Below the pieces are notes generated by a model, which was not told where the DNA came from, made no database searches, and saw only the letters and a list, made by a program, of their open reading frames with translations. The translations under genes and the position numbers were made by a program. A DNA stretch of 45,390 nucleotides from an uncultured Pseudomonadales bacterium (GTDB lineage Bacteria; Patescibacteriota; Microgenomatia; UBA1400; PJMF01): contig CAZKNL010000002.1 in the NCBI GenBank assembly GCA_964554155.1, positions 11,629 through 57,018 on the forward strand, read 5' to 3'. Within the stretch, counting starts at the first letter, position 1. The number at the start of each line of letters is the position of its first letter. Positions 1 through 42,574 of this stretch are shown piece after piece.

Positions 1-28
1 GAAACAATAATGACTGTCAGCAACATAA

Positions 29-6080: not shown

Positions 6081-6087
6081 AGAGTTC

Positions 6088-7614: not shown

Positions 7615-7622
7615 TTCTATTC

Positions 7623-7631
7623 ATCATAGCA
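7623..7631 (-). promoter_or_regulatory. Extended -10-like element TGCTATGAT, 8 nt upstream of ATG 7614
   Basis: The reverse complement of ATCATAGCA is TGCTATGAT. There is no Shine-Dalgarno between it and the ATG. Confidence 0.4.
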
Positions 7632-7650
7632 GCATCTTGTCGCATTCGTG

Positions 7651-7656
7651 TATACT
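7651..7656 (+). promoter_or_regulatory. -10-like element TATACT, 7 nt upstream of ATG 7664 (uxs)
   Basis: The sequence reads gtgTATACTtttccagATG with no Shine-Dalgarno. Confidence 0.4.
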
Positions 7657-7663
7657 TTTCCAG

Positions 7664-12442: not shown

Positions 12443-15079
12443 ATGAATACTTTATATGTTCGTTCTCATCTTTCACGAAAATCAAACTTCCGTCTGTTGA
12501 CTCGATTTTTTACCGTTGGCAAGATAGTAAAAGTGAGTAAATCTCCGTTTAGCTCAGATGCCTACACACACATTCGAGCAATAGCAGAAAATGAAAAACA
12601 AGTAGCCAAAAATTTTAATTATTTCTTTAAAGTTCTTTTTTCAACAACAAAAAATGATTCACTCATTTATCCGTATCTTCCTGAGCTTACCTTAGAAGCT
12701 TTGATGGAAAAAGCTTTGATCCAAAAAGATTTTCAACTTTTGGGTCAACTTTTTAAAAGTGGTTTACAACTGATTCTTCAACTTCCTAGTCAGAACTTTA
12801 CGGCTCATCCCAACCCGACTTTGTATAAAGAATGGTTCAGTCAAGAACCAGATCTTTCCCAAACAATGCTAATGCCTGGTTTAATAGATATTACTGCAGG
12901 TAATCTAATTGCTACACAGCCACTTTTTACATTACTAGATTGCGAGTGGGTGTTGCCTTTCCCTGTTGAAAAAGAACTCGTTGCATTTCGTTATTTCTGG
13001 AACTTAGTGACTCATTTTTCTTCTTTACTAGAAATGTATCCCCAGCAACTTGATTTACTTGCTGTTGCTCAAACCAACTTAGTTATTCCCAAAGGATGGT
13101 TGACGTCAGTGCTAGGAACAGCAGATGTCGAAAAGCTGAATAAATACTTAGAAAAGGAAGCAGCTTTACAAAGCTATATTTTAGATTTTCAGAAAGATGT
13201 TGTTCCTACAGCTGTTGAACTATTACCATATGAACAAGCAACTACCAAAGAGGAAGCACTGCCAATTTCGAGTGTCACCTCAGCACGCATCAAAGAACTC
13301 AGCAATAAACTAAGTAAACAGGACGAAAAAATTGCTAGTCTTCAAGATCAATTGTTTATCATTCATCATTCAAGGTGGTGGCAGATTTTATATCTGTGCA
13401 AACACCCTCGATTTCTTTGGCACCGAGTTCAAAATGAAATTAAACTGCTAAGAATTAGAGTGGTTAGCAAGTTAAGGCGTCTGAATGTGTCATCTTCAGA
13501 GAGTGTTATTACTGCTCCTATCACAGATTTAAGTTCACTAGAACTAAAAGCAGCTCCTCGAATGCTTTTTAAAACAGTCGAACCTATTGATATTATCATT
13601 CCAGTTTTTAATGCTGCAAACGAAGTTCAAAAATGTATTGCTAGTGTCTTAAAACATGCAACTAAAAATATACATGTTTACATAGTTGATGATCTGAGCA
13701 CAGATCATCAACTTATTGAAGTATATGCCAACTTGGCAGATCACCCACAGGTAACAATTTATAGAAATAAACAACGGCAAGGTTTTGTTAAAAACATTAA
13801 TATGGGATTCAGATTATCAAATCATGATGTGATTATTTTGAACACTGATACAGAAGTTACTGAAAATTGGGTTTCTAAACTTCACGCTGCGGCATATTCT
13901 TTACCAAATGTGGCGACTGTAACGCCAATGACAAATAATGGCGAAATCGTTTCGATTCCAGATTTTGTGAAGTCAAACTCTCTATCAACGAAATATTCTT
14001 TAGAAGAACAAAACAAATTGGTTGAAAGATTTGCTGCTCACCAGCATATTATTGTCCCAACTGGTGTTGGATTCTGTATGTATATTCGACGAGAAGTCAT
14101 TGACGAGATTGGCAACTTTGATGAAGAAACTTTCGGAATGGGATACGGTGAAGAAAATGATTTTTGCCAACGAGCTATTCAGGCCGGGTATATCAATATT
14201 GTTGACGATTCAACATTTATTTACCATCGTGGCGCAACTTCATTTACCCCACAAAAAAAACAAGAATATATTCAACACAACTTGCGTCTTTTATTTGATC
14301 GCTTTCCGAGATATGAATCTCAAGTCTATGCATTTATCAAACGGAATCCACTTTTATATATCCAGGAAATGTTTCGGCTTGCACTTAATAAGCCGGAAAT
14401 TTTTTCTGAGCCAGCCGTGTTATTTGTGATTCATAAAAACCCATTCAGAGTAGTGGGCGGCGTAGAAGTGGATGTCAAAAAAATGCTTCAACAGATTGGT
14501 CCTCAGCCTTTGTTCTTTGTGATGCACAGAGATGACAATTTTAAAGAAAACTGTTTATACCTCAAGGTAATTAAGGATAATGAAGTCATTCATGAATTTA
14601 TGTATCGGTTTGATCAACCAATGAATATACTAGATATTGAGCATCCAGAAATTACGTGGTTCTGGCAATGGATAGTAAAGGCGTTCCCGAATATTCATAC
14701 AGTTCATTTGGAGCATACCTATGGATTACCACTAGCTGGTCTGAAGATATTCCGATCGACAGGCAAAAAAGTATTACTTAACTTTCATGATTTTTACTAT
14801 GCGTGTCCATATGAAAAGTTAATTAATCAAGATGTTCCAAACTATATAAAGTTAGAACAAAATATTGAGGCATGCTATGAATCGCTTAAAAATGTTTTCG
14901 GATCTTCCTCAGCAGCTCAGGGATATCAGCAGTACCGTCAAGCAATTGTCACTGATCTATTTAAAAATAGTGTAACTACTTTTATTTTCAACTCTAAATA
15001 CACGCTTGATGAACACAAAAAAATATGGCCAAATGTGTTTACTAAAGAAAACTCCGTTATCATTGAACCCTATGTTTAA
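12443..15079 (+). CDS. Multidomain protein: kinase-like N-domain, short coiled coil, GT2 domain, and N-terminal Rossmann half of a GT4/GT-B domain
   Basis: The N-domain carries D-x4-N ... D-x-E (GLIDITAGNLIATQPLFTLLDCEW, nt 12878-12949). A heptad-like segment ARIKELSNKLSKQDEKIASLQDQL follows (about nt 13276-13355). The GT2 domain shows IDIIIPVFNAANEV ... VYIVDDLSTD ... ILNTDTEV (about nt 13580-14250). The GT-B N-half shows AVLFVIHKNPFRVVGGVEVDV ... LNFHDFYYACP ... FIFNSKYT. Confidence 0.7.
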   Translation: MNTLYVRSHLSRKSNFRLLTRFFTVGKIVKVSKSPFSSDAYTHIRAIAENEKQVAKNFNYFFKVLFSTTKNDSLIYPYLPELTLEALMEKALIQKDFQLLGQLFKSGLQLILQLPSQNFTAHPNPTLYKEWFSQEPDLSQTMLMPGLIDITAGNLIATQPLFTLLDCEWVLPFPVEKELVAFRYFWNLVTHFSSLLEMYPQQLDLLAVAQTNLVIPKGWLTSVLGTADVEKLNKYLEKEAALQSYILDFQKDVVPTAVELLPYEQATTKEEALPISSVTSARIKELSNKLSKQDEKIASLQDQLFIIHHSRWWQILYLCKHPRFLWHRVQNEIKLLRIRVVSKLRRLNVSSSESVITAPITDLSSLELKAAPRMLFKTVEPIDIIIPVFNAANEVQKCIASVLKHATKNIHVYIVDDLSTDHQLIEVYANLADHPQVTIYRNKQRQGFVKNINMGFRLSNHDVIILNTDTEVTENWVSKLHAAAYSLPNVATVTPMTNNGEIVSIPDFVKSNSLSTKYSLEEQNKLVERFAAHQHIIVPTGVGFCMYIRREVIDEIGNFDEETFGMGYGEENDFCQRAIQAGYINIVDDSTFIYHRGATSFTPQKKQEYIQHNLRLLFDRFPRYESQVYAFIKRNPLLYIQEMFRLALNKPEIFSEPAVLFVIHKNPFRVVGGVEVDVKKMLQQIGPQPLFFVMHRDDNFKENCLYLKVIKDNEVIHEFMYRFDQPMNILDIEHPEITWFWQWIVKAFPNIHTVHLEHTYGLPLAGLKIFRSTGKKVLLNFHDFYYACPYEKLINQDVPNYIKLEQNIEACYESLKNVFGSSSAAQGYQQYRQAIVTDLFKNSVTTFIFNSKYTLDEHKKIWPNVFTKENSVIIEPYV

Positions 15080-23076: not shown

Positions 23077-24312
23077 CTAACTTAACCAGTATCCTTGTAC
23101 AAATAAAACTGTATTTATTACCAGACTGATACTAAAGACTGTAATGATACCCCATTTTAGCTTGGGGTGTTTGGTTGTCTCATCTATGAATAATAAGTAT
23201 AAAGGGAAACAAACCAGTAGATATCTTGGCATGCTGGAGAAGGTACCAGTCAGTGTTGGTAAAAAGAACGCTCCTAAACCAAATAAAACATAAGATAAGC
23301 GAACGGATCGAGCTGACCAGAGAAGTCCTAGTAAACCCAACCCTCCAGCTAGAAACTCAAGGATTGATGTGTAGTATCTCCAACTGAAGGGATTCGTGGT
23401 GAACAGAATCTTCAAGGCTCTCCACAGAACCTGTGGATATACCACTAAACTTTCTTGTCTTCCGGCCCCGAACTGAGTTTGTACATGAAGAAAATACAGT
23501 GGATCATGAAAATCTTTCGTCAAGTAAAGCATATAGGCTATTAACCCCGACATCCCAATGAGAATCAGAAGTAACGCCTTCCACTCAGATTTTATCCATT
23601 CTGATAGTTGCTGAGAAAAAGGTGCTTTGAGCGTTTTGGCTAATTGTTCAGCTCGCCACTGCAACCATGATTCAATCACCAATGCAGGAAAAAGAAACGC
23701 TCCAACTATTCGAGTGGCTGTGGCAACCATCATCCAGAGTGAAGTTACCCACCAGGACTTATTTTTGGCAGCCCAAAAAGCGGCAATGACTGCCAGAAAA
23801 AACAGCGACTCAGTATATAAAGCGCCAAAAAATAATGCCGTTGGAAAGCTCAACAGCAAAAGTGTGCCGTACCATGCTTGCGTAGATTTCAAAAAACTTT
23901 TCAAAAAACCATACCAAGTAATTAAGCTGGCTAGCGCAAATGTATTTGTTACGAATAAACCTTCTAAAAGAAGATTGAGATGATGGTCAGTCAATAAGAA
24001 GAGAGTTCTCAAAACAACAAATGGCAGCATCGGGAAAAAAGCCTGAATCAAACCTGTTCCAAGATACCCTTTTTCAGCAATAGTTAAGTAATGAACACCA
24101 TCAAAGTTTGCCCAACTATACAGCCATCGAGGTAGATGATATTGCTCCGAGAGAGTATCTGCATATGGAAAGCTTGGAGCATATTTCAAAAAGTGATCTG
24201 CTACTCCACCAACGGTAAATAAAGCGATTCGCCAAACAAGAAAGAGTAAAACTAATTGAATAACCTCACTTTTAGTAATTCTCAGAGCAATTTGTTTTGA
24301 GTAGAAAGTCAT
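23077..24312 (-). CDS. GT-C-like membrane mannosyltransferase, PIG-V (Mannosyl_trans2)-like
   Basis: 411 aa and polytopic. The loop motif WANFDGVHYLTIAEKGYLGTGLIQAFFPMLP matches the W..WD..hY..IA..GY...aFfP signature of PIG-V-type proteins. Confidence 0.55.
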   Translation of the reverse strand: MTFYSKQIALRITKSEVIQLVLLFLVWRIALFTVGGVADHFLKYAPSFPYADTLSEQYHLPRWLYSWANFDGVHYLTIAEKGYLGTGLIQAFFPMLPFVVLRTLFLLTDHHLNLLLEGLFVTNTFALASLITWYGFLKSFLKSTQAWYGTLLLLSFPTALFFGALYTESLFFLAVIAAFWAAKNKSWWVTSLWMMVATATRIVGAFLFPALVIESWLQWRAEQLAKTLKAPFSQQLSEWIKSEWKALLLILIGMSGLIAYMLYLTKDFHDPLYFLHVQTQFGAGRQESLVVYPQVLWRALKILFTTNPFSWRYYTSILEFLAGGLGLLGLLWSARSVRLSYVLFGLGAFFLPTLTGTFSSMPRYLLVCFPLYLLFIDETTKHPKLKWGIITVFSISLVINTVLFVQGYWLS

Positions 24313-24317
24313 AAGAT

Positions 24318-26024
24318 TTATTTTTTATGATTATGAGCTAAAAACCACTGGCCTACGACTAAAATTATATACAGTCCAGTTAAGAGACTGACTGTGTTGC
24401 CAATTACCCTTGACCAAGTCCATTGGGTGAAACGAGTTACGATGTTGTACATTCCAGGAGAGAGTTGATAGGCGATCCTACCAGAAATTTCTTTATTCTG
24501 AAGATAGTTGACCATTGTAGATCTTGCAGAATTTTTATTGGTAATGAGTGTTTCCCAGCCAGGAAAAAACATGGTTGGTTCAACAACTGTGACTGGAGTT
24601 ACTGCAACCACTGTGTATTGACGGACCGAACCATTCCATTGTTGGACTGAAGTGCTGCCTTCCCCTTCTAAAATACGTGCCGTTGGTTGCCAGTTGGCAA
24701 ATTCTTGATAGGTGAAATTTTTTGGTAGGTCCTCGTTGCTAGTAGTTGTACTCTGCTCAAAAAGTTCATACTCAACTCTTTCTTTATGCAGATACCCAAC
24801 TGGAGTTAAACGCCAAACAATTATCAGTTGAATGCCTAAAGCAAGAGTAATGGCAATTCTTTGCCAACGAATGTTTTGTTGAACTACCCATGCCACCAAA
24901 GCAGAGCTGGTTAATGTTGCGAACAGTCCTAACCGCCATGGAAATTGAATGAATCTGGCTAGGGGAATAAGTTGCCAAATTGACGATGTCCCGCTGAGTT
25001 GAAAGATCAACAAACCAATGGTCACCACTAACATCACCCAAAAAAATTGATTGAATGTTTTGCTCATTTGTTTTTGTTGAAGTCCAACTCCTGCAAAAGC
25101 CCACCCAATTGCACAGAACAAAGCTACCCACTCAGCAAAACCAAAGGCAAAAGATAATGAATCAACTGCTCCAAGATAGGAAAAACCGAACTGGAGTGGA
25201 CTAGCCAGTAGTTGCTGAAGTGTTGGAAAATGTTGCAGATATTGTTGAGCGAGTGAACTTCCGCTAATAATAATTGCAGATTGTTCGGCCAGTGCAGGCA
25301 GCCAGAACCATAAACTTAACCCTATACCAAGGGCGGTAGCTCCTCCGACAGAGAGTAGCTGTTCTTTTTTCTGCCACAGTCGCCAAATGCTATATATCAG
25401 TATTAATGGTGTCCCAAATAAAACAGTCACGTTGTGCGAGAGAAAAAAACAGCCAACTAGAACTCCACCAATTACAGTCATGGGTGAAAGCAGACCTGTT
25501 TTTTGATTCCGTAACTTTTCTACCCAGAGCAACCACCAACTCAAACACGCTAATCCTAAAACTTCACCAATGCTGCCACGATAGATGACTGTTTGGACAA
25601 GGTAAGGTGAAACAATAATGCTCGTTACTGCAGCAATTTTTGCCCAGGTACCCATTCCTAATTGGGTCAACCACATCCAAAAACCGACTACAAGTGCAAC
25701 TACCGCTGCTGACATAATGAACTTAAACGTGAACTCATACGAAATTTTGATCAGTGAGAAAGGAACTGATAAAATATTTGGCAGTGGATAGTTATAGTTA
25801 AACACAGGATAGCCATAGCGATGAAAAAGATTTGGAGCAAAACGAGGTGGCCACTGCCCTTCTTTTAAAGCAATTTTATAGTTAGCGAAGCGAGCGAGGT
25901 GATTTTCTCCATCATGAGTAATCGGCACACCTTGATGAATATAAACGCGCAAAACACTCAGTGAGAGTACAGTACAGAACAAAATTAAGCAAAATAATGA
26001 AAAAGCTGAACGGAGTTTAATCAT
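24318..26024 (-). CDS. Polytopic membrane protein, PTPS-related/COG5617-like (putative GT-C-type enzyme)
   Basis: THDGENHLARFANYKIALKEGQWPPRF ... GYPVFNYNYPLP near the N-terminus, then IQFPWRL mid-protein, then a C-terminal beta-domain with FFPGWETL. It is a paralog of 44060..45390. Confidence 0.5.
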   Translation of the reverse strand: MIKLRSAFSLFCLILFCTVLSLSVLRVYIHQGVPITHDGENHLARFANYKIALKEGQWPPRFAPNLFHRYGYPVFNYNYPLPNILSVPFSLIKISYEFTFKFIMSAAVVALVVGFWMWLTQLGMGTWAKIAAVTSIIVSPYLVQTVIYRGSIGEVLGLACLSWWLLWVEKLRNQKTGLLSPMTVIGGVLVGCFFLSHNVTVLFGTPLILIYSIWRLWQKKEQLLSVGGATALGIGLSLWFWLPALAEQSAIIISGSSLAQQYLQHFPTLQQLLASPLQFGFSYLGAVDSLSFAFGFAEWVALFCAIGWAFAGVGLQQKQMSKTFNQFFWVMLVVTIGLLIFQLSGTSSIWQLIPLARFIQFPWRLGLFATLTSSALVAWVVQQNIRWQRIAITLALGIQLIIVWRLTPVGYLHKERVEYELFEQSTTTSNEDLPKNFTYQEFANWQPTARILEGEGSTSVQQWNGSVRQYTVVAVTPVTVVEPTMFFPGWETLITNKNSARSTMVNYLQNKEISGRIAYQLSPGMYNIVTRFTQWTWSRVIGNTVSLLTGLYIILVVGQWFLAHNHKK

Positions 26025-27894: not shown

Positions 27895-29547
27895 TTAGGG
27901 TTGATCAATCAACCAGTTATTAAAAGTTGGGTTCCACTCAATTAAATGTTTATCTTCAGAGACTCGATCTTCACGGTGGGCGATAAAACGATATTGACCT
28001 ACTCGATACCCATACTTTAGTCCTATTCTATCAGGCAAATGATGGTTGATTGTTTGGAAGAATGTTGTTGGTGGCATTTTCAGGTACCAAGCAACTGAAA
28101 CATATAAAAAGCCGTTTGGGTCGACAATTGCAGCTTGGTCTTGATTGTTATTCGTCGTTTTTTCCACACTTTGCAGAGCTGGAAGTAGACCAGCTTGCAA
28201 AATCTCTGCGCTTTGTTTTGGGTAACGAGTAAAGTAACTAAAGTAGTAGCGATGAATCTCTAGATACAAGCCAATACTTAATAACAAAATAAAGAAAATT
28301 TGGGCAGTAGTTCTCTGAGTAGTTCTGAGTGAAACTTCCTGCCAAATATACTGAATGCCTAAACCACTAAACAGACAAATCAAAAAGAAGAAGAAAAGAC
28401 TCCGAGTGGCATGAGGAGCATCAACGGTAATCACTGCCGGGATGAGTGAAGTAACGAACAAGAATAAAATTGCTTGATATTGCTTGCGCGTTTGTTCTAA
28501 GGATCGTTTGGAGAATGCTTTCCAAATAGATCTCAAAATGCCAACGATGAATAATAGGTAGGTGGCTAAAAATAAGTGACCATAACCTGGAAGGGTATGC
28601 CATGGGTGTTGCCCTCCGCGCCAGACTAAAAATTGTGGTGAGAGTGACTGAACATATCGAGTAGCAACTTCTCTGCCAAAAAAAACAAACCTGTTCCCAA
28701 TCAGTTTTTGAGTTACTCCTGTGAATGAATTGTGGTAGTTCACAGATTGCTGCCAAAGTGTTTCATCAGTAAAGATGGTGATACCACTTTTCTGATGGTT
28801 GATTGAAGAAAATAAAACAATACCCGACAGGAAAAGCAACGATAAACTCACAACTGGAAAACTATATCTTCGCCAGTTTTTAATACCGCGTTGGAGGATC
28901 ATTGCCATAACTAAAAATGGTAGAAGTAACAATGGAGTGTTATAGCTAAAAATAGCGAGAACTAACAACAAAAGACTACCAATATCAAGCAACAGATATT
29001 GACGAAAAGAAAGTCTGGCTTTCTTCCCTGCATAGAAGAGAAGGAGCAGAGCACCGACAAAAAACCCCAGACCCACATTTGCCTCCCAAGCCATCCGCGA
29101 ATAAAAAAAGAAGATGGGTTGAAAAGCTATGGTTGCGGCGACCCATAAAGAAGCTCCTTTTCCTAATCCCAAAACCTTCCGTGCGCATAAAAATCCTAGA
29201 AGCACGAGGACTATTCCGGCAATTGCAGAAGGGAGCCGGACGACAAAGTCGTTGTAGCCAAATAGCTTAAAAAATCCAACCAGCAAAAAAGGATATCCAG
29301 GCAATTTATAGTCTCCAAATGACTCGAGTGTAATTGGCCAGGTCCTTCCCCACTCATCTTTGCCTGTCTGATTCAATAGAAAAGCGTTGTATGCCAATGC
29401 AGCTTCATCACGGTTTAAAGTTGTTGGCAATGTTGCCAAGTGATGAAGTCGCAGTATGGTAGCTATAAATATAACTAGAATTAGAACTATTCCAGTAAAG
29501 ATTGAGCGAGAAAACGGAGTGCGTTGAGTTAAGTGAATTTTTTTCAT
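27895..29547 (-). CDS. GT-C-fold membrane glycosyltransferase, ArnT/PMT-like (array member 1)
   Basis: LNRDEAALAYNAF ... FGDYKLPGYPF ... VVRLPSAIAG ... DAPHATRSL, with a soluble C-terminal domain. There is an ATGA overlap with the upstream paralog. Confidence 0.75.
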   Translation of the reverse strand: MKKIHLTQRTPFSRSIFTGIVLILVIFIATILRLHHLATLPTTLNRDEAALAYNAFLLNQTGKDEWGRTWPITLESFGDYKLPGYPFLLVGFFKLFGYNDFVVRLPSAIAGIVLVLLGFLCARKVLGLGKGASLWVAATIAFQPIFFFYSRMAWEANVGLGFFVGALLLLFYAGKKARLSFRQYLLLDIGSLLLLVLAIFSYNTPLLLLPFLVMAMILQRGIKNWRRYSFPVVSLSLLFLSGIVLFSSINHQKSGITIFTDETLWQQSVNYHNSFTGVTQKLIGNRFVFFGREVATRYVQSLSPQFLVWRGGQHPWHTLPGYGHLFLATYLLFIVGILRSIWKAFSKRSLEQTRKQYQAILFLFVTSLIPAVITVDAPHATRSLFFFFLICLFSGLGIQYIWQEVSLRTTQRTTAQIFFILLLSIGLYLEIHRYYFSYFTRYPKQSAEILQAGLLPALQSVEKTTNNNQDQAAIVDPNGFLYVSVAWYLKMPPTTFFQTINHHLPDRIGLKYGYRVGQYRFIAHREDRVSEDKHLIEWNPTFNNWLIDQP

Positions 29548-31331
29548 CGAGTAAAAGTAGCTATAGCAAGTTTATTACTCCAAACCTCATCATGAATATA
29601 CTGAATGTTACATCTATAACTATTGGGTAAGGGGCAGCTTTTCGCAAAGAGTGTGTTTTCGCCAACTACTAGAGTACAAGAAGATCCTTCTGGTGGAGAG
29701 CAATACTGCTCAATTGATTTTGTTTCCCCAGCTACGATAAATGACTGCCCTTCTGTGAATTTTTTTGCCAACTTGGACTGATCAACTCCACCGAACTCAA
29801 TCCTTGCAAAGTTCTTGTCGATCCGATCAGTCTGAAATTTGTAGTTTTCAGACGGCCAGCCCTGAAATTCTTTGGCAGAGTATGGTCCATACGCCATTAA
29901 CCACAGATAAAAGCGGTCATCAAAAGGCTGAATTACGATTGTTTGGCCATCTTTTGCCAGTTGAGTGATTTTTTGTGCCAGGGGTTTATAGCCACTTTGC
30001 CAGTCATTGGCGGAAAGTTTTGGGTAAACCTGAGTGTAGAACCACCAAAAGTGTAGAAAAGAGCCAGCGTAGAGCAGGACAATGATCAGTTGGAGCTTAT
30101 ATCTCGATAGCCATATCCACCACCAGGTTGTTCCAAAACCAATAATCATGCTTAAGGGAATCAGTGCATTTAATGAACGGAGTGCATGTGGAGTATTTTC
30201 AGGTACAGAAGCTGGTAGTAACGCAATGAACCACCAACCAATCAAAAAAAGTCCGAGTGATGGATGTCTTTTTAGCAAAACAATCAGACCAACTATAAAT
30301 GCTGGAACAAAAGCCAGTAAAAATAATCCAAACTGGCCAGTTCCGTGACGGAGGTTTGGATCTCCATTCACAAATAAAAATGAGCCGGATAAGTTATCAC
30401 TATAGTTCTTTGCTAACTCTCTAAACATCAACCAATACCGATGATAAAAGACTCGGTCGATGAATGTATTCCCAGCTAACTGACGATAGACATTACTTTG
30501 TATGGCTAGTTTTTCATTATTTAAGACTGAGTCAGTCCCTAGCCGGAAACGGTCAGCGTCTTTGGCCAGAGGTGAGCGTAAGAGCGGAATCAACACAATC
30601 ACAAATACTAAGGAACCTGCTAACGAATGGATTAAAGCTTGCCAGGGAAACTGGAGTTTTTTCCATGAAAATAGTAGCTGTTGTCTGCAAATAGCCAACC
30701 CAGATACACCTAAATAAACAAATGGCCACACAAATCTGACCGAAAAATAGGTGTAGGTTGCCAGCGAGCCAATCAAACCAGCCAATAAAAAGAATCTGAG
30801 CTCCTTTTTGTACAGGCCCCAAGCAGTTGCGAGCATCGAAGCTCCAAATAAGGCTTGAGCAAGATGCCCTTCAAAAGCTGTTCGTGAGAACATAACTGAC
30901 CAAGGAGTGATTGCTACCACAACCATTGTCAGGAGTTGTGCTAACTCCAAAAATTTTTGGCGGTAGGGTGTTTTTGTTCCAATCTGGAGTAACACTCTTA
31001 TTAATGCGCCAGCAATTATCACCGTGAACACTCCAGCCAAGGCAGATGGCAGTCTTAATCCAAATTCGCTCAAGCCGAAGACTTTACAACTGACTGCAGC
31101 TGCCCAGATATAAACTGGCAACTTGTAGTCTCCGTATGAAGGATAGATCAGTTGATACCAGGGTAGATTGTGCATATCTCTACCTGTTGCCAAAACAGAC
31201 TTGATATCTACCAACATGGCTGCTTCATCCCAATAGACTGAAACAGGAAATCTACCTAATTGCCAGATACGGAGTACTCCAGCCAAAAAAACAACCAAAA
31301 TAAAAAAGATCCAAAACCAACGACGTGGCAT
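29544..31331 (-). CDS. GT-C-fold membrane glycosyltransferase, ArnT/PMT-like (array member 2)
   Basis: VYWDEAAMLVD ... YGDYKLPVYIW ... GLRLPSALAG ... VNGDPNLRHGTGQFG ... NTPHALRSL ... NDWQSGYK, with a C-terminal domain of about 150 aa containing five Cys. Confidence 0.75.
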   Translation of the reverse strand: MPRRWFWIFFILVVFLAGVLRIWQLGRFPVSVYWDEAAMLVDIKSVLATGRDMHNLPWYQLIYPSYGDYKLPVYIWAAAVSCKVFGLSEFGLRLPSALAGVFTVIIAGALIRVLLQIGTKTPYRQKFLELAQLLTMVVVAITPWSVMFSRTAFEGHLAQALFGASMLATAWGLYKKELRFFLLAGLIGSLATYTYFSVRFVWPFVYLGVSGLAICRQQLLFSWKKLQFPWQALIHSLAGSLVFVIVLIPLLRSPLAKDADRFRLGTDSVLNNEKLAIQSNVYRQLAGNTFIDRVFYHRYWLMFRELAKNYSDNLSGSFLFVNGDPNLRHGTGQFGLFLLAFVPAFIVGLIVLLKRHPSLGLFLIGWWFIALLPASVPENTPHALRSLNALIPLSMIIGFGTTWWWIWLSRYKLQLIIVLLYAGSFLHFWWFYTQVYPKLSANDWQSGYKPLAQKITQLAKDGQTIVIQPFDDRFYLWLMAYGPYSAKEFQGWPSENYKFQTDRIDKNFARIEFGGVDQSKLAKKFTEGQSFIVAGETKSIEQYCSPPEGSSCTLVVGENTLFAKSCPLPNSYRCNIQYIHDEVWSNKLAIATFTR

Positions 31332-31357
31332 ACAGATGATGATATCATCATCTGTAT
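31330..31357. promoter_or_regulatory. Perfect 28-nt palindrome filling the divergent intergenic gap; contains two overlapping, oppositely oriented extended -10-like elements (TGATATCAT)
   Basis: ATACAGATGATGAT|ATCATCATCTGTAT is its own reverse complement, which I checked base by base. It abuts ATG 31331 on the minus strand and ATG 31358 on the plus strand. TGATATCAT lies 7 nt from the minus ATG and 9 nt from the plus ATG. Confidence 0.5.
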
Positions 31358-32713
31358 ATGAAAAAGTTGACGACTTCAGTTACTCCTTTGAAGTGGAAAT
31401 TGCTTATTGTTTTGTTCATTTTTTCGCGGATCTTAATTTGGTTCACTCCTCCACCAGAATTTACTGAGATTATTTATAGTTACATGCCCTATGCTCATTT
31501 GTGGGCCAGTGGCACACGTCCTTATCTTGATCAATGGTTCGAGTATCCGCCAGCCACTATTCCATTGTTTTATGTCCCTCATATGATTGACATGACTACT
31601 CGCTATTGGCCGATTCATTTGAATTATTCAAACGCATATCGAGGAATACTTTTAATTATTGATGCACTTTTATTTACGGGGATTATTTTGACATTGAAGA
31701 AAAGGAAAGTTACTGGTCGTTTGTTTTGGGTGGCAGTTGGTATGTATCTGTTTTTAACAACTAAAGCTCATCACTTTATTTATGACACTATGGACCTAAG
31801 CTTTGCAGCAGCAATGGTATTCGGTGTAATTGGGCCATTACTACTGACTGGGTTCAAAGGAAAGTTTAGTCAGTGGTTTGGTTTTTTCTTAGCCACCGCA
31901 TTGAAGTATGTAAATGCACCACTAGCTGTTATCTATGCTGTGATTGATCGACGGCAAATCATCCGATCGGCAATAGCAGGAGCCTTAGCACTTGCAGTTG
32001 TTTGGTTGGTCCCAGTGGTTCTCTATCGTTCTTCTCTGCAAGTCAGCCTGGTCTATCAACAGTTACGAGGTATTCAAATCGATACAGCGACCTCGATCAT
32101 TTTGCGAACTATAAACGTTTTTACCAAGAGTGAAAAAGTCATTGAAGTCTACAAAAACTATGAAATTGCAGGACCTCTGACAAACCAGGCCAAAAGAATT
32201 CTTTCTTTTGCTTTCCCAGCTGCAATTGGAGTGTTTCTTTTGGGTTCAACTATTTTTATTCTACGTTCTCCAGTGGAAACAACAGACAACCGTTTTGTAT
32301 TGGCAAGTCACTTCACTCTCGGATACATATTAGTTTTCATGATCTTCGCTAAAGTGTTATCGACACCATTTCTGTTATGGCACTTACCATTTTTAGCAAT
32401 TTATCCATTTACTAGTGTAAAGCGTCAAGCACAGTATGCAGTCTTATCATTTTTAGTTATTTTTAGTTCAATGACCAAAGTTTCAAATATGGAAATTCTT
32501 ATTTTTCCTTTGCCATTAATTATCGGTTGGGTGCGAACACTCAGTTTCATGGCAATGTTAGTGATTTGGTTACGGGATACTAGTAATTTACAGGGAAAAT
32601 TAATTGCCGAAGTTAATTACGAACCTCAGCCAGAACCCACACTACCTGCCCACGGAGGTCCTTCACCTCGCCGATCTTCTCGACAAAAGAAAATTGTTTC
32701 TGCAGCTGTTTAA
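31358..32713 (+). CDS. Polytopic membrane protein, GT87/DUF2029-like (putative polyprenyl-P-sugar dependent glycosyltransferase)
   Basis: 451 aa with about 11 TM helices. The loop motif RPYLDQWFEYPPATIPLFYVP resembles the Y/F-x-YPP motif of GT87 proteins. The last 33 codons or so overlap the convergent gene and encode a low-complexity P/S/R tail. Confidence 0.45.
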   Translation: MKKLTTSVTPLKWKLLIVLFIFSRILIWFTPPPEFTEIIYSYMPYAHLWASGTRPYLDQWFEYPPATIPLFYVPHMIDMTTRYWPIHLNYSNAYRGILLIIDALLFTGIILTLKKRKVTGRLFWVAVGMYLFLTTKAHHFIYDTMDLSFAAAMVFGVIGPLLLTGFKGKFSQWFGFFLATALKYVNAPLAVIYAVIDRRQIIRSAIAGALALAVVWLVPVVLYRSSLQVSLVYQQLRGIQIDTATSIILRTINVFTKSEKVIEVYKNYEIAGPLTNQAKRILSFAFPAAIGVFLLGSTIFILRSPVETTDNRFVLASHFTLGYILVFMIFAKVLSTPFLLWHLPFLAIYPFTSVKRQAQYAVLSFLVIFSSMTKVSNMEILIFPLPLIIGWVRTLSFMAMLVIWLRDTSNLQGKLIAEVNYEPQPEPTLPAHGGPSPRRSSRQKKIVSAAV

Positions 32714-34358
32714 ATTGATCAGCTGAACAGACAACTAACCCAGGAGCAGCTTCATTGACTGAGTTAATAAAATGCAGGTTTTGGAAAGTCAGAAACTCCC
32801 CTTGATCTTTTTTTGCAATGTTCTCTTCAGCCTGAACTTGTCGTGGATCTGTTTGACTAAAGAACCAGTAATACATTGCTGGTCGACCATATTCACGCGT
32901 AATCAAAATAGGCTGATCGGGGTGAGTAACTTTGTATTGATTCACCCGAGTGACCATCTGTTTATACCCGTACTGCCATTCTGAAGCTGCAAGGATTGGA
33001 TAAATTTTGGTGTAGTAGCGCCAGTACATCCACCACTGCACACTGCTCACAAAGAGTAAGGTGATAACTCCCACCCAAAGAACATATTTTGGTTTTTGTT
33101 TCTTCAACCACAAAAGTGAAACAGTTAAGCCTATTGTTATGGTAAAGAGAAAGATTGGTGCTGTCGGTAATATTCTAAGTGCATGAGGTGCAGCTTTGGT
33201 AACTGCTGCCGGAAAAATCCCAATCATCAACCACCACAGCAAGAACAGTATATACATTCGAAGTTTTTTATTTTTAAATGTCTGAGCAGCAAGAAAAATA
33301 ATTCCAATACTTAACCAAGTTGCATCGGTAAAGTAAAGAATACCAGTAAATCCAGTTGAGTGACGAAGATTTTGATCACCATGAATAAATAAAAAATCGA
33401 CTGAAAAATGGGTCAAAAAATTACTGAGGGTTTGTGAGGCAAGATAGATATAGCGATGACCAAAAATTTTAGCACCAATACTGTTCCCAGCCAGTTCACG
33501 AAATTGATTACTCTGAACAACGTATTGGCCGTCAGCATATAAGCTTGTTTCCGCAAAGCGTTGCTGAGTAGTTGGATTACCGACACTCAGAAGGAGTGGA
33601 AAAACCAAAACGGCAAACAGAAAGATTACCACCACTGCTTGTTGTATGGCCAGTTTTCTTTTTAAATGCTCAAAAAGAGCTGGTGAAAACCAAATCATAT
33701 TCAAACTGATAAACACTGCAGGAGCTATGATTCGTGTGGCATGATAGGTATACATTGATAGGACAGCCAGAACAGCAGTTGCGAACATTTTAATTAACCG
33801 AGAAAACCCTTGAGTCGGTGACTGTTCCACCCACAGACCACAGACCACTGACCACAATAATAAACAACTTGCTAAATTAACTTCCCAACCTCCCCGTGAG
33901 AACTGGATCAACCATGGAGAAGTAGCAGCTATAATCATTCCAAGTAAAAACACCCAACCAAAAAAAGTTTTTTTCTGATTAAGCCAAATAGCTTGAGCCA
34001 AAAATTGCGCGAGTAATCCAACGCCAATGACAATCAAAACTCCGGCGAGTGCGCTTGGTAATCTGACTGCTGTTTCGTTGAGACCGAAAAGGGCAATAAA
34101 AGGAACAACTGCATAAAAGTATCCACTTGGTTTGTAGTCTCCAAAAGAGCTAAAAGCGACCACTGGCAATGGCTGACCATGATGATCTTTGCCAGTTTTG
34201 ACAATAGAGTATGCATCATATCCAAGAGCTGCTTCTTCCCAGTATAGAGAAGGCGGTAAATTGTCTAGTTGCCAAATTCGGACGAAGCAAGCGAATAAGA
34301 CGACTCCGATGCATAAAAATAAAAAATAACGATCAAGTAAATTTACAAAAAACTTCAT
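32613..34358 (-). CDS. GT-C-fold membrane glycosyltransferase, ArnT/PMT-like (array member 3)
   Basis: LYWEEAALGYD ... FGDYKPSGYFY ... AVRLPSALAG ... IHGDQNLRHSTGFTG ... AAPHALRIL ... SEWQYGYK. There is an ATGA overlap with the upstream fusion gene. Confidence 0.75.
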   Translation of the reverse strand: MKFFVNLLDRYFLFLCIGVVLFACFVRIWQLDNLPPSLYWEEAALGYDAYSIVKTGKDHHGQPLPVVAFSSFGDYKPSGYFYAVVPFIALFGLNETAVRLPSALAGVLIVIGVGLLAQFLAQAIWLNQKKTFFGWVFLLGMIIAATSPWLIQFSRGGWEVNLASCLLLWSVVCGLWVEQSPTQGFSRLIKMFATAVLAVLSMYTYHATRIIAPAVFISLNMIWFSPALFEHLKRKLAIQQAVVVIFLFAVLVFPLLLSVGNPTTQQRFAETSLYADGQYVVQSNQFRELAGNSIGAKIFGHRYIYLASQTLSNFLTHFSVDFLFIHGDQNLRHSTGFTGILYFTDATWLSIGIIFLAAQTFKNKKLRMYILFLLWWLMIGIFPAAVTKAAPHALRILPTAPIFLFTITIGLTVSLLWLKKQKPKYVLWVGVITLLFVSSVQWWMYWRYYTKIYPILAASEWQYGYKQMVTRVNQYKVTHPDQPILITREYGRPAMYYWFFSQTDPRQVQAEENIAKKDQGEFLTFQNLHFINSVNEAAPGLVVCSADQFKQLQKQFSFVEKIGEVKDLRGQVVWVLAEVRN

Positions 34359-40789: not shown

Positions 40790-42574
40790 ATGTCACAACG
40801 TACTCATGGTCTTCTGGTTTTAGTTGTTCTTTTAGCTACCTCTGTGTTTTTAAGAGTGATTTTTTTACGAACTACTCCTGCTATTTTTAGCCATGATGAA
40901 GTCCACTATATTGATGAAGCTCAATCAATTGCTCTCAGTGGTAGCGATCTGACTGGGAGTTGGCGACCATGGTATCTTCGTCCCACGAGCGTGCTCTATG
41001 CAGAGCTTCCCAGTACGATTATGTCTCCAGGGAGTTTGCTTTTTAGTGATCCATTCTGGAAAGCACGAGCAGTTTCAGTTTTTCTTGGTGTGTTACTTCC
41101 AGTGGTGATTGCCGGAATCGCTTGGAGTTTAACGAGAAAGAAAGAGGTTTTTTGGACCACTTTGATTGTCAGTCTTTTTAATCCGTGGATTTTTCAATTT
41201 TCACGATTGAGCTTTGATCCATTGTTTAGTTTGTTTTTTTATTCATTGGGCATATTCTGTCTGATCGCTTTGCGTCCACGTTGGCGAATGATCAGTCTGT
41301 TGCCATTTTTTCTGGGTTTTTTCCAGTATCAAGGACTCAAAATTATTTTCTTACCGTTGGTAGTGATAACAACTGGCTACGTCATTTGGCGTGATTGTTC
41401 AGGAACTTCACTTACTCTTAAGAGTGTAGTTAAAACAATTCGCTCCCAACTGTGGGATGTCTTGCTTGTAGCCATTTTTGGACTTGCTTTATTTGGTTTT
41501 TATATTGTGCGCTTACCATCACAGAATGCGGGTCAACGACTTCACGACATCCTCTTTTTCAATGAAACGTATCTTTCTCAACATGTAAATGATCAACGAC
41601 GGATTGCCTTAGCTGATCCAGTAGTTCAAGTTTCGACGAATAAAGTGACCGTGATCATTCAAGAATTTCTGATCAAATACTTTCAAACGTTTGATTTGAG
41701 TCAACTCTTTGTTCGAGGAGAATCTGTTCGCAATCCTTTCTCAGTGTGGACAAGAGGGATCTTTTTCCCGATTGATGTATTGTTAATTGGAGCGGCTATC
41801 TTTGCTTTGGCTACGCAAAAAAAATGGCGGAAAGAAGGGTTGTTGTTAATTGGATTTGTCCTAATTTCTCCTTTACCCGTTGCTCTCAACAGTATTGACA
41901 CTTGGGTGATGTTCCGGGGATCGTGGCTCGTTGTTAGCCTTTTGTTGATGATTGGCATTGGTGCTTGGCAACTCATTCAAGCATGGCCTAAGATTTTGCT
42001 TGTTGGGGTGGGTGTTGTGTACCTTATTACAGTCGTCAGTTTTACTCATGAATACTTTATTCACTATCCAATCTACAGCACCAAGGGCAGTGGTTTTGCT
42101 GAACGAGTTCTATCCAACTATATTCAGCGTCTACCAAAAGATAAAAAAGTAGTTGTCTTAGTTGATGAATCACGTTTTGTCTTTGAGAGTTATCTGGCGT
42201 ACAACAACTTAGTCACCCAAGAAAACTTACCAGCCATTCACAAAGCGATGACAGAAAGTGTCTATAAGCTGGGGAATGTGGAGTTTACTACAGATTGCCT
42301 CGACCAGAAACTGGTGGCAGATGGCACGATTGTCATTAATAGCAGCGTCAATGTGACCTGTGATCAGAAACCTTTTCAACTCTCCAACACGCATTACGCC
42401 AAAATTGCTTCGTTGATCGATAATGGCGCCCAGTTCACCATCTACATTGATTCAATTTGTGTGAAATATGCCCTCAGACCCTATACTCATGTAACTAACC
42501 GTAAATTTCTCGATGCAGAAAAACTGTCAGAGCACGATTTTTGTGATGGTTTACTCAGCAAGCCTATTGAGTAA
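40790..42574 (+). CDS. GT-C-fold membrane glycosyltransferase, divergent ArnT/PMT-like
   Basis: 594 aa with about 12 TM helices. The first loop has FSHDEVHYIDEAQSIAL, which carries two DE motifs. There is a soluble C-terminal domain of about 170 aa with Cys residues. Confidence 0.62.
   Translation: MSQRTHGLLVLVVLLATSVFLRVIFLRTTPAIFSHDEVHYIDEAQSIALSGSDLTGSWRPWYLRPTSVLYAELPSTIMSPGSLLFSDPFWKARAVSVFLGVLLPVVIAGIAWSLTRKKEVFWTTLIVSLFNPWIFQFSRLSFDPLFSLFFYSLGIFCLIALRPRWRMISLLPFFLGFFQYQGLKIIFLPLVVITTGYVIWRDCSGTSLTLKSVVKTIRSQLWDVLLVAIFGLALFGFYIVRLPSQNAGQRLHDILFFNETYLSQHVNDQRRIALADPVVQVSTNKVTVIIQEFLIKYFQTFDLSQLFVRGESVRNPFSVWTRGIFFPIDVLLIGAAIFALATQKKWRKEGLLLIGFVLISPLPVALNSIDTWVMFRGSWLVVSLLLMIGIGAWQLIQAWPKILLVGVGVVYLITVVSFTHEYFIHYPIYSTKGSGFAERVLSNYIQRLPKDKKVVVLVDESRFVFESYLAYNNLVTQENLPAIHKAMTESVYKLGNVEFTTDCLDQKLVADGTIVINSSVNVTCDQKPFQLSNTHYAKIASLIDNGAQFTIYIDSICVKYALRPYTHVTNRKFLDAEKLSEHDFCDGLLSKPIE

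What the first reader, a model, noticed from the sequence alone, without database searches (positions are those of the whole stretch)
31330..31357. Perfect 28-nt palindrome that makes up the entire gap between two divergent start codons
ATACAGATGATGATATCATCATCTGTAT (31330-31357) equals its own reverse complement exactly. Its two outermost bases on the left belong to the minus-strand ATG (31331-31329), and the plus-strand ATG follows immediately at 31358. The centre is GATATC. Each arm yields TGATATCAT, an extended -10-like TGnTAnnnT. That element lies 7 nt upstream of the minus ATG and 9 nt upstream of the plus ATG. The element could therefore be a symmetric bidirectional leaderless promoter whose two -10 boxes share the same base pairs, so only one RNA polymerase could bind at a time. 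It could also be an operator for a dimeric regulator, or both. A perfect 14+14 repeat with no spacer is very unlikely to arise by chance in a 26-bp gap.
Basis: seen in the sequence. Interest (0 to 1): 0.62.

Follow-up and report, generated by a model that had tools for sequence, protein, structure and literature searches.

The report
Two-way promoter for two leaderless genes
The perfect 28-base palindrome between two back-to-back sugar-transferase genes of an uncultured soil Patescibacteria bacterium is most likely a tiny two-way promoter: its ten central bases, unchanged in 16 related genomes, form two interlocked start signals that launch both messages almost at their start codons.

Summary
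ATACAGATGATGATATCATCATCTGTAT (31330-31357) is a perfect 14+14 palindrome. It fills the 26-bp gap between the divergent start codons at 31331 (-) and 31358 (+), and chance would give about 0.0003 such palindromes per window.

Sixteen distinct orthologous loci from other Patescibacteria (57-79% protein identity) keep the divergent arrangement. Only ATGATATCAT (31339-31348) is invariant. That block is exactly two extended -10 elements (TGnTATCAT), one per strand. Their hexamers share the central TA, and each TG lies inside the other hexamer. This is the known "23-bp" configuration of symmetric bidirectional sigma-70 promoters.

The hexamers end 7 nt (-) and 9 nt (+) before the ATGs, with no Shine-Dalgarno sequence. 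The same layout, TANNNT 6-9 nt before ATG, occurs at 14 of 37 genes in the window (p about 2e-6) and in relatives. Leaderless expression therefore appears common in this lineage.

The outer 9 bp of each arm are not conserved, and the closest relative is symmetric over only 16 bp. The full 28-bp perfection is lineage-specific. It probably reflects template-switch "perfecting" or similar constraints on both discriminators.

An operator or cruciform role is not excluded. No transcription start data could be obtained. I class it as a new member of a known kind, of moderate interest.

The parts
31330..31357 (.). Perfect 28-bp palindrome (14+14, no spacer). It covers the whole 26-bp divergent gap plus the 'AT' of the minus start codon.
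   Evidence: Identical in contigs of runs X1 and X2. As single-stranded DNA it folds to a 12-bp stem with a 4-nt loop, -10.1 kcal/mol, z = -4.3.
31339..31348 (.). Invariant 10-bp core ATGATATCAT: the union of the two interlocked extended -10 elements.
   Evidence: These are the only invariant non-coding columns in the alignment of 16 orthologous loci. TGATATCA occurs at no place other than this orthologous site in about 330 kb of window plus relatives.
31340..31348 (+). Extended -10 element TGaTATCAT for the plus gene (hexamer 31343-31348). It lies 9 nt before ATG 31358. Predicted start is A 31356 (inferred).
   Evidence: Sequence. The bases just before the plus ATG are CAT or TAT in 12 of the 13 loci where an ATG follows the core directly; L009 has TTT.
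31339..31347 (-). Extended -10 element TGaTATCAT for the minus operon (hexamer 31344-31339). It lies 7 nt before the ATG at 31331. Predicted start is the A of the ATG, 31331 (inferred).
   Evidence: Sequence. Spacing of 7-8 nt in all 16 loci. N=7 is the modal spacing of TANNNT before ATG in the window.
29544..31331 (-). 595-aa polytopic membrane protein, a weak PMT_2/GT-C-like glycosyltransferase paralogue. It is the first gene of a tightly packed minus-strand row of eight genes running down to 21259.
   Evidence: gene packing, with overlaps or gaps of 7 nt or less. (PMT_2, E = 0.08). Orthologues carry a weak PF13231 hit. The start M(P/S)RRW is conserved.
31358..32713 (+). 451-aa polytopic membrane protein with no Pfam family and a GT-C glycosyltransferase fold. 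It is a single gene, convergent with the next minus-strand gene.
   Evidence: no Pfam hit. AlphaFold2 model: pLDDT 77.7, pTM 0.81. Foldseek top hits are GPI mannosyltransferase I 9wno, ALG6 6snh and PimE 9dm7. 98 homologues, those named being Patescibacteria or Pacebacteria apart from one record labelled Vitreimonas sp..

Best explanation
The centre of the palindrome is a minimal, symmetric bidirectional sigma-70-type promoter. Two extended -10 elements (TGnTATCAT) sit on opposite strands. Their hexamers overlap by the central TA, and each TG motif lies inside the other's hexamer. RNA polymerase can bind in either orientation without needing a -35 element, and it cannot bind in both at once. 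Binding leftward, it starts at or next to the A of the minus ATG (31331) and transcribes a row of eight glycosylation genes. Binding rightward, it starts about two bases before the plus ATG (A 31356) and transcribes one GT-C glycosyltransferase gene. Neither message has a Shine-Dalgarno sequence, and both would be translated as leaderless or near-leaderless mRNAs, which appears to be a common mode in this Patescibacteria lineage. Shown: the sequence, its conservation, the spacing and the genome-wide pattern. Inferred: the transcription starts, mutual exclusion of the two orientations, and leaderless translation. The outer 9 bp of each arm, which make the dyad perfect over 28 bp, are a lineage-specific extension of the constrained core. 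They most likely arose from template-switch (quasipalindrome-correcting) mutation and/or from similar constraints on the two discriminator and start regions, and they need have no separate function.
For: (1) Conservation. In 16 distinct orthologous loci (57-79% protein identity), the only invariant intergenic columns are ATGATATCAT (sequences). Every one of these 10 positions belongs to a hexamer or TG of one promoter, and positions that are 'don't care' for one are critical for the other. L044 retains exactly this 10-bp core and no more.
(2) Spacing. The hexamer ends 7-8 nt before the minus ATG in all loci and 6-9 nt before the plus ATG in 13 of 16.
(3) Genome-wide context. TANNNT ends 6-9 nt before the first ATG at 14 of 37 window genes. 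Other offset bins average 3 of 37, and internal in-frame ATGs give 13 of 199 (Fisher p = 2.5e-6). In 151 genes of relatives, TGNTANNNT occurs 11 times at N=6-9 against 1.4 expected (p = 2.5e-7). SD-like 4-mers are rare.
(4) An outgroup with separate promoters. L017 (54% identity) keeps the divergent genes with a 75-nt gap and two separate elements, TGCTATGAT-N6-ATG and TAAGAT-N6-ATG. Other divergent pairs in the window have back-to-back extended -10 elements in 40-nt gaps.
(5) L009. The same core drives a different first gene, a bcp-like peroxiredoxin, at N=6.
(6) Literature. The hexamer geometry (positions 1 and 2 pairing with 2 and 1) is the published 23-bp configuration of bidirectional promoters. 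One polymerase binding event prevents the other (abstract). Sigma-70-type -10 elements are reported as conserved across 49 bacteria, including a CPR species.
(7) Outer arms. The closest relative, L037 (79%), is symmetric over only 16 bp. It differs from the window by a 1-nt indel on the left and three adjacent substitutions on the right (CACCAT versus CTGTAT), all of which create complementarity to the left arm.
Against: There is no transcription-start evidence. No RNA run holds the window's organism. For relative L001, only unstranded Logan contigs of 'metatranscriptomes' are available. In four runs (X4, X5, X7, X10), contigs run across the palindrome. If those are RNA, some transcripts start elsewhere. 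However, X4 gives a 72-kb contig (longest record 203 kb), so DNA carry-over is likely.

The plus-side spacing of 9 nt is long for a start exactly at the ATG. In the L041/L045/L046 subclade the plus ATG lies about 20 nt further away, and in L041 the ORF opens only at an ATG inside the palindrome. Strict leaderlessness on the plus side is therefore not universal.

Symmetry beyond the core recurs in other lineages: L041 has 22 bp, and L043 has 16 bp with a compensatory TT/AA. Within-genome perfect-arm length exceeds that of shuffled arm pairings (p = 0.011). This hints at something favouring dyad symmetry that a plain promoter model does not require.
Confidence: 0.7

Rival explanations
1. The palindrome is chiefly an operator for a dimeric DNA-binding regulator, for example a repressor sitting on both -10 elements and switching both transcription units together. 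The -10-like look of the core would be secondary. This could also co-exist with the promoter.
For: The dyad is perfect over 28 bp. Symmetry beyond the 10-bp core recurs in several lineages with different outer sequences, and there is a modest excess of within-genome arm complementarity (p = 0.011). From my own knowledge, TGATGAT|ATCATCA resembles the Fur-family 7-1-7 box TGATAATnATTATCA. In L009 the first plus-side gene is a peroxiredoxin, a typical PerR or Fur-family target.
Against: No regulator gene is present among the 38 genes of the window. No second copy or good half-site occurs in 45 kb of the window or about 330 kb of relatives. Conservation is one contiguous central block rather than two half-sites with a free centre, and the outer arm bases differ between genomes. 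The spacing is 7-0-7, not the 7-1-7 of Fur-family boxes. The two genes still need a promoter, and the gap contains no other TANNNT.
Confidence: 0.12
2. The full perfect palindrome is selected as a DNA-structure switch. Under negative supercoiling it extrudes as a cruciform (or forms hairpins during opening), hiding both -10 elements, so that expression of both units depends on supercoiling.
For: The 28-mer folds as single-stranded DNA into a 12-bp stem with a 4-nt loop at -10.1 kcal/mol, z = -4.3. The palindrome is A+T-rich at its centre. Extended symmetry recurs at this one site, whereas the rest of the window has no palindrome beyond chance length. From my own knowledge, cruciform-regulated promoters have been built and described in E. 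coli.
Against: Most relatives have only 10-16 bp of perfect symmetry, too short for stable extrusion. The closest relative lacks the outer arms. There is no experimental handle here.
Confidence: 0.06
3. Only one of the two -10 elements is a working promoter, most likely the one for the eight-gene minus-strand row at N=7. The other gene is transcribed from a start elsewhere, and the second element is conserved only because it is the mirror image of the first.
For: The plus side has a longer (9 nt) and more variable distance. In L041/L045/L046 the plus ATG is 29-30 nt from the hexamer or, in L041, overlaps the core. RNA-library contigs cross the palindrome on the plus side (X5 5929-6113).
Against: A single promoter does not require all ten bases. 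T 31348 (T-7 of the plus element) and T 31340 / G 31341 (its TG) are non-critical for the minus element, yet they are invariant in 16 loci, and the converse holds too. The bases just before the plus ATG are CAT or TAT in 12 of the 13 loci where an ATG follows the core (L009 has TTT). No other -10-like hexamer precedes the plus gene.
Confidence: 0.1
4. The palindrome is a chance occurrence, an assembly artefact or another kind of site, such as a 28-bp dif/Xer site, the ends of a mobile element, or a terminator.
For: The 28-bp length with an 11-6-11 reading superficially recalls dif sites (own knowledge).
Against: Expected number by chance is 2.8e-4. It is present in two independent runs and conserved in position in 16 genomes. 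The centre is conserved and the arms vary, the opposite of dif. There is no spacer, no T-run and no flanking repeat. No Rfam family was found in the window.
Confidence: 0.01

Closest known systems
Symmetric bidirectional sigma-70 promoters (Warman, Forrest, Wade and Grainger; bioRxiv 10.1101/2020.01.31.928960; NAR 2026, PMC12825309), 23-bp configuration
   Same: Two -10 hexamers on opposite strands whose key positions base-pair; here positions 1 and 2 (TA) pair with positions 2 and 1. The starts are predicted either side of them, about 23-25 bp apart. Binding of one polymerase excludes the other. The promoter is used for mRNA production in both directions.
   Different: Both elements are extended -10 (TGn), and each TG is embedded in the other's hexamer, which fixes the 8-mer TGATATCA. 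Both messages are (near-)leaderless, so the entire divergent control region is 26 bp. The organism is an uncultured Patescibacteria bacterium. Activity is not measured here.
Leaderless transcripts of Actinobacteria and Deinococcus-Thermus (e.g. the M. tuberculosis leaderless transcriptome, Cortes et al. 2013, as cited in PMC12641261; otherwise own knowledge)
   Same: A -10 hexamer TANNNT lies about 6-9 nt upstream of an ATG, there is no Shine-Dalgarno sequence, and the pattern is enriched genome-wide.
   Different: Different phylum. I found no paper describing leaderless expression in Patescibacteria. The starts here are predicted, not mapped.
Quasipalindrome template-switch mutation (Ripley model; E. 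coli quasipalindrome hotspots studied by Lovett and colleagues; own knowledge)
   Same: A cluster of adjacent changes (three substitutions, CACCAT to CTGTAT, relative to the closest relative) all make one arm the exact complement of the other. This is the signature of copying one arm from the other.
   Different: The event is inferred from two sequences only, and its direction (gain in the window or loss in L037) is not resolved. L042, an outlying relative, shares CAG...CTG.
Fur-family operator boxes (7-1-7, TGATAATnATTATCA; own knowledge)
   Same: An A+T-rich dyad overlapping -10-like sequence, with 12 of 14 half-site bases the same.
   Different: Even spacing (7-0-7), no regulator gene, no other sites, and variable outer arms. 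The membership test was not met.

Membership tests
Symmetric bidirectional sigma-70 promoter (23-bp configuration) | Two TAnnnT hexamers on opposite strands, placed so that key positions pair (hexamers overlap by TA) | tested here: met
   TATCAT at 31343-31348 (+) and 31344-31339 (-). The geometry matches.
Symmetric bidirectional sigma-70 promoter (23-bp configuration) | Both hexamers under purifying selection | tested here: met
   All 10 bases ATGATATCAT are invariant in 16 orthologous loci.
Symmetric bidirectional sigma-70 promoter (23-bp configuration) | Divergent primary transcription starts mapped about 7 nt outside each hexamer | tested here: inconclusive
   No RNA run exists for the window. 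For relative L001 only unstranded contigs are available, with probable DNA carry-over.
Symmetric bidirectional sigma-70 promoter (23-bp configuration) | Transcription in both directions from the isolated fragment; loss on mutating shared bases | not testable with these tools
   Needs in vitro transcription or reporter assays.
Bacterial leaderless mRNA genes | -10 hexamer ending about 6-9 nt before the start codon | tested here: met
   N=7 (minus) and N=9 (plus) in the window. N=7-8 (minus) in all loci and N=6-9 (plus) in 13 of 16 loci.
Bacterial leaderless mRNA genes | No Shine-Dalgarno sequence; ATG start codon | tested here: met
   The gap ACAGATGATGATATCATCATCTGTAT has no GGAG/GAGG/AGGA. 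ATG is present on both sides in all loci with the compact gap.
Bacterial leaderless mRNA genes | Same architecture enriched genome-wide | tested here: met
   14 of 37 genes against a background of 3 of 37; 13 of 199 at internal ATGs; p = 2.5e-6. Relatives show the same.
Bacterial leaderless mRNA genes | 5' end of the mRNA within 0-5 nt of the start codon | not testable with these tools
   Needs 5' end mapping.
Operator of a dimeric regulator (including the Fur-family 7-1-7 box) | Dyad symmetry | tested here: met
Operator of a dimeric regulator (including the Fur-family 7-1-7 box) | Conserved half-sites at fixed spacing (7-1-7 for the Fur family) | tested here: not met
   The conserved part is a contiguous 10-bp centre. 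The outer half-site bases vary, and the spacing is 7-0-7.
Operator of a dimeric regulator (including the Fur-family 7-1-7 box) | Cognate regulator gene nearby and/or further sites (a regulon) | tested here: not met
   No DNA-binding regulator was found in the window. No other site occurs in the window or in 330 kb of relatives. The whole genome was not available.
dif / Xer recombination site | Conserved 11-bp arms around a variable 6-bp centre | tested here: not met
   The opposite pattern is seen: the centre is invariant and the arms vary.
Intrinsic terminator | G+C-rich hairpin followed by a T-run, located at gene ends | tested here: not met
   No terminator was called at the site. It lies between two start codons.

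The most novel reading that the evidence does not exclude
The whole perfect 28-bp dyad, and not only the 10-bp core, is selected. It would be a toggle read either by a dimeric protein or as a supercoiling-driven cruciform. The toggle would decide how RNA polymerase is shared between an eight-gene surface-glycan operon and a single GT-C glycosyltransferase gene, in a streamlined bacterium with few conventional regulators. The recurrence of different but symmetric outer arms in separate lineages (window 28 bp, L041 22 bp, L043 16 bp) would then be covariation that preserves the structure.
Probability: 0.15. Interest if true: 0.7.

Novelty: new member of a known kind. Interest (0 to 1): 0.45.

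Why it matters
This is about the smallest complete divergent control region one can build: 26 bp hold two promoters and, because both messages are leaderless, no ribosome-binding sites. It shows how a genome-reduced Patescibacteria bacterium packs gene control, and it gives a clean natural test case for RNA polymerase competition at symmetric promoters.

The by-product may matter more. About 40% of gene starts in this window carry a -10 element 6-9 nt before the ATG, and few have a Shine-Dalgarno sequence. If this holds for whole genomes, leaderless initiation is a major mode in at least this CPR lineage. That would affect gene calling and start-codon annotation of such MAGs, and I found no paper reporting it.

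Tried and rejected
**Searches that found nothing**
- A search for copies or half-sites of the arm in the window gave only chance-level matches.
- Rfam found no family in the window, and there are no tRNAs.
- The sigma-70 consensus scan with a -35 requirement called nothing at the site. That is as expected for an extended -10 promoter without a -35 element.
- An exact-protein look-up of the window's own gene found nothing.
- No regulator gene was found among the window's genes.
- Literature searches for leaderless mRNA in Patescibacteria or CPR gave no relevant paper, and none on leaderless bidirectional promoters.

**RNA evidence**
- No RNA run exists for the window, L015 or L014.
- RNA-labelled runs for L001 are only unstranded contigs, some of them 72-203 kb long. 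They cannot place starts.

**Ideas rejected**
- Restriction-site avoidance: GATATC is not under-represented (11 observed, 11.2 expected).
- A dif site, a terminator, a mobile-element end and an assembly artefact (see the rival explanations).

**A weak test**
- Covariation between arms: summed complementarity at positions 6-14 is no greater within genomes than between genomes (p = 0.17). Only perfect-arm length is (p = 0.011). Evidence for selected extended symmetry is therefore weak.
Full report
**1. The observation**

Window 31330-31357 reads ATACAGATGATGATATCATCATCTGTAT and is its own reverse complement.
- CAT at 31329-31331 is the ATG of the minus-strand ORF 29544-31331.
- The plus ORF 31358-32713 starts immediately after the palindrome.
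- The gap is therefore 26 bp, all of it palindrome.

It is far beyond chance. The next longest perfect palindromes in the 45-kb window have 8-nt arms. In 200 shuffles the longest arm never exceeded 11 nt. The expected number with arms of 14 nt or more is 2.8e-4. Contigs of two independent soil-metagenome runs carry it unchanged. The window holds no other copy or good half-site.

**2. Context**

The window (40% G+C) is a large cell-surface glycan cluster. It encodes GT2, GT4 and several GT-C/PMT_2-like membrane glycosyltransferases, sugar epimerases, an aminotransferase, flippases and an ABC-2 exporter. RuvABC is also present. There is no DNA-binding regulator.

- **Minus gene.** It is a 595-aa PMT_2-like paralogue and heads a tightly packed row of eight minus-strand genes running down to 21259.
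- **Plus gene.** It is 451 aa and has no Pfam family. Its AlphaFold2 model (pTM 0.81) matches GT-C enzymes: GPI mannosyltransferase I, ALG6 and PimE.
- **Source.** Where homologues are named, nearly all are labelled Patescibacteria or Pacebacteria; a few records carry other labels (Vitreimonas sp., uncultured Pseudomonadales). The source is a soil metagenome.

**3. Comparative evidence**

I collected 16 distinct orthologous loci that keep the minus GT-C gene next to the element. Their plus-gene proteins are 57-79% identical to the window's. Sources were one genome scan, one metagenome scan and exact-protein look-ups.

In the alignment, the only invariant non-coding columns are ATGATATCAT, which is window 31339-31348. 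The neighbouring G is nearly invariant. Everything further out varies.

| Locus (protein identity) | Sequence around the centre |
|---|---|
| Window | ACAGATGATGAT\|ATCATCATCTGTAT |
| L037 (79%) | ACAGTATGATGAT\|ATCATCATCACCAT |
| L038 (70%) | ACCAGAAGATGAT\|ATCATCATTCACAT |
| L044 (60%) | ACAAGATAATGAT\|ATCATCAATACCAT |

Perfect-palindrome lengths across the 14 loci scored (L014 repeats L038's gap; L009 was not scored) are 28, 22, 16, 16, 16, 14, 14, 14, 12, 12, 12, 12, 10 and 10 bp.

The octamer TGATATCA occurs nowhere else in about 330 kb of window plus relatives.

**4. What the invariant block is**

ATGATATCAT is the union of two extended -10 elements, TGaTATCAT, one on each strand.
- The hexamers (31343-31348 on + and 31344-31339 on -) share the central TA.
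- Each TG occupies positions -9/-8 of the opposite hexamer. This explains why the hexamer is TATCAT rather than TATAAT.
- Every invariant base is needed by one promoter or the other. Bases that are unimportant for one (for example T 31348 for the minus element) are critical for the other.
- A single promoter would not predict all ten.

This geometry, with hexamer positions 1 and 2 pairing with 2 and 1, is the published "23-bp" configuration of symmetric bidirectional promoters. For such promoters, one RNA polymerase binding event excludes the other. Sigma-70-type -10 elements are reported as conserved across bacteria, including the one CPR species with start-site data.

**5. Leaderless reading**

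The hexamers end 7 nt before the minus ATG and 9 nt before the plus ATG. There is no Shine-Dalgarno-like sequence.

This is not peculiar to the site.
- In the window, 14 of 37 gene starts have TANNNT ending 6-9 nt before the first ATG. The mean for other offset bins is 3 of 37, and internal in-frame ATGs give 13 of 199 (Fisher p = 2.5e-6).
- Examples are TGTTATCCT-N7-ATG (40790, +), TGTTAGAAT-N9-ATG (40749, -), TGCTATGAT-N8-ATG (7614, -) and TACAAT-N7-ATG (4929, -).
- In 151 genes of the relatives, TGNTANNNT occurs 11 times at N=6-9 against 1.4 expected.
- SD-like 4-mers are rare.

The likely starts are:
- **Minus:** the A of the ATG, giving a true leaderless message.
- **Plus:** the A two bases before the ATG, giving 5'-AUAUG. 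The bases just before the plus ATG are CAT or TAT in 12 of the 13 loci where an ATG follows the core directly; L009 has TTT.

These starts are inferred, not mapped.

**6. Evolutionary path**

- An outgroup (L017, 54%) has the same divergent genes 75 nt apart. It carries two separate leaderless-type elements, TGCTATGAT-N6-ATG and TAAGAT-N6-ATG.
- Other divergent pairs in the window have back-to-back extended -10 elements in 40-nt gaps.
- L020 has another near-symmetric pair, ATCATAGCA|TGCTATACT.
- The interlocked 26-27-bp version is thus the most compact member of a series.
- In L009 the same core drives a bcp-like peroxiredoxin gene lying in front of the 451-aa gene.
- In the L041/L045/L046 subclade the plus ATG has moved about 20 nt away, and in L041 the ORF opens only at an ATG inside the core. 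This is an unexplained exception.

**7. The outer arms**

The promoter model explains 10-12 bp, not 28 bp.

The closest relative, L037, differs from the window by one base on the left and by three adjacent substitutions on the right (CACCAT versus CTGTAT). All three make the right arm the exact complement of the left. That is the signature of a template-switch (quasipalindrome-correcting) mutation (own knowledge). The direction of change is not settled, because the outlying L042 shares CAG...CTG.

Extended symmetry with other sequences occurs in L041 (GTGAAG...CTTCAC, 22 bp). There, sister taxa show that a single C-to-T change completed it. It also occurs in L043 (TT/AA).

A permutation test gave two results:
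- Perfect arms are longer within genomes than in shuffled arm pairings (p = 0.011).
- Total complementarity shows no excess (p = 0.17).

Both discriminator and start regions also share a loose pattern, C-rich and then A-T before the ATG. I conclude that the 28-bp perfection is lineage-specific and probably has no separate function. A selected dyad, read as an operator or a cruciform, is not excluded. As single-stranded DNA the 28-mer folds at -10.1 kcal/mol.

**8. RNA evidence**

- No RNA run holds the window, L015 or L014.
- For the L001 organism, bioreactor "metatranscriptomes" exist only as unstranded contigs.
- Contigs cross the palindrome in X4, X5, X7 and X10.
- X4 assembles a 72-kb contig, and its longest record is 203 kb, so DNA carry-over is likely.
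- This test is inconclusive.

**9. Rivals**

- **Operator.** I found no regulator gene and no second site. The conservation pattern is wrong for two half-sites, and the 7-0-7 spacing does not fit Fur-family boxes. It cannot be excluded without the whole genome and binding assays.
- **Only one side active.** This is disfavoured by the invariance of bases needed only by the other side.
- **dif site, terminator, artefact or chance.** All rejected. GATATC is not avoided in the genome.

**10. Verdict**

The element is a new member of a known kind: a symmetric bidirectional promoter. Three features stand out. Both extended -10 elements interlock, both messages are (near-)leaderless, and the host is an uncultured Patescibacteria bacterium. 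Interest is moderate. The apparent prevalence of leaderless gene starts in this lineage is the more consequential side result.

Noticed in passing
window, whole (e.g. 40790 +, 40749 -, 7614 -, 4929 -, 39787 -, 1584 -): Leaderless-type gene starts are common. 14 of 37 first-ATG starts have TANNNT ending 6-9 nt before the ATG (p = 2.5e-6), several with an upstream TG, and Shine-Dalgarno-like 4-mers are rare. The same is seen in 151 genes of relatives. I found no paper on leaderless mRNA in Patescibacteria.
   Followed up: partly
window 7559-8662 (+): The mechanical ORF start (GTG 7559) overlaps the divergent gene. The epimerase domain begins at residue 45, and an ATG at 7664 is preceded by TATACT-N7. 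The real start is therefore probably 7664, giving a 49-nt divergent gap with two back-to-back -10 elements.
   Followed up: partly
window 32613-32713: The convergent genes 31358-32713 (+) and 32613-34358 (-) overlap by 101 nt at their 3' ends. An imperfect 38-nt palindrome (32583-32620) lies there. The plus protein's C-terminal tail is low-complexity and variable among homologues.
   Followed up: no
window 13684-13713: A perfect 13-nt inverted repeat with a 4-nt loop (AGTTGATGATCTG / CAGATCATCAACT) lies inside the 878-aa GT2 gene. It is the second most unusual inverted repeat in the window.
   Followed up: no
L020:1230-1265: Another Patescibacteria divergent pair has a near-symmetric back-to-back promoter, ATCATAGCA|TGCTATACT. 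It gives TGCTATGAT-N7-ATG on one strand and TGCTATACT-N6-ATG on the other.
   Followed up: no
L009:3530-3555: The same interlocked core (TGATGATATCAT) sits 6 nt before a different first gene, a bcp-like peroxiredoxin, which precedes the 451-aa GT-C gene. In more distant relatives (L007, L016, L020) the bcp-like gene also precedes it.
   Followed up: partly
L041:2477-2560; L045, L046 same region: In one subclade the plus gene's ATG lies about 20 nt further from the core. In L041 an apparent 1-nt shift puts that ATG out of frame, and the ORF opens only at the ATG inside the palindrome (product starts MISSS...). In P0017 (L042) the gene caller placed the start upstream, so the product reads through the palindrome (...MMISSE...).
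   Followed up: partly
window 6088-7614, 23077-26024, 27895-34358, 40790-42574: There is an unusually high number of polytopic GT-C/PMT_2-like membrane glycosyltransferase paralogues (at least seven) in one 45-kb cluster. Several are below Pfam thresholds.
   Followed up: partly
L001:4000-8000 (runs X4-X10): Public 'metatranscriptome' runs from bioreactors assemble 72-kb and 203-kb contigs of this Patescibacteria genome. This points to substantial DNA in the RNA libraries.
   Followed up: no
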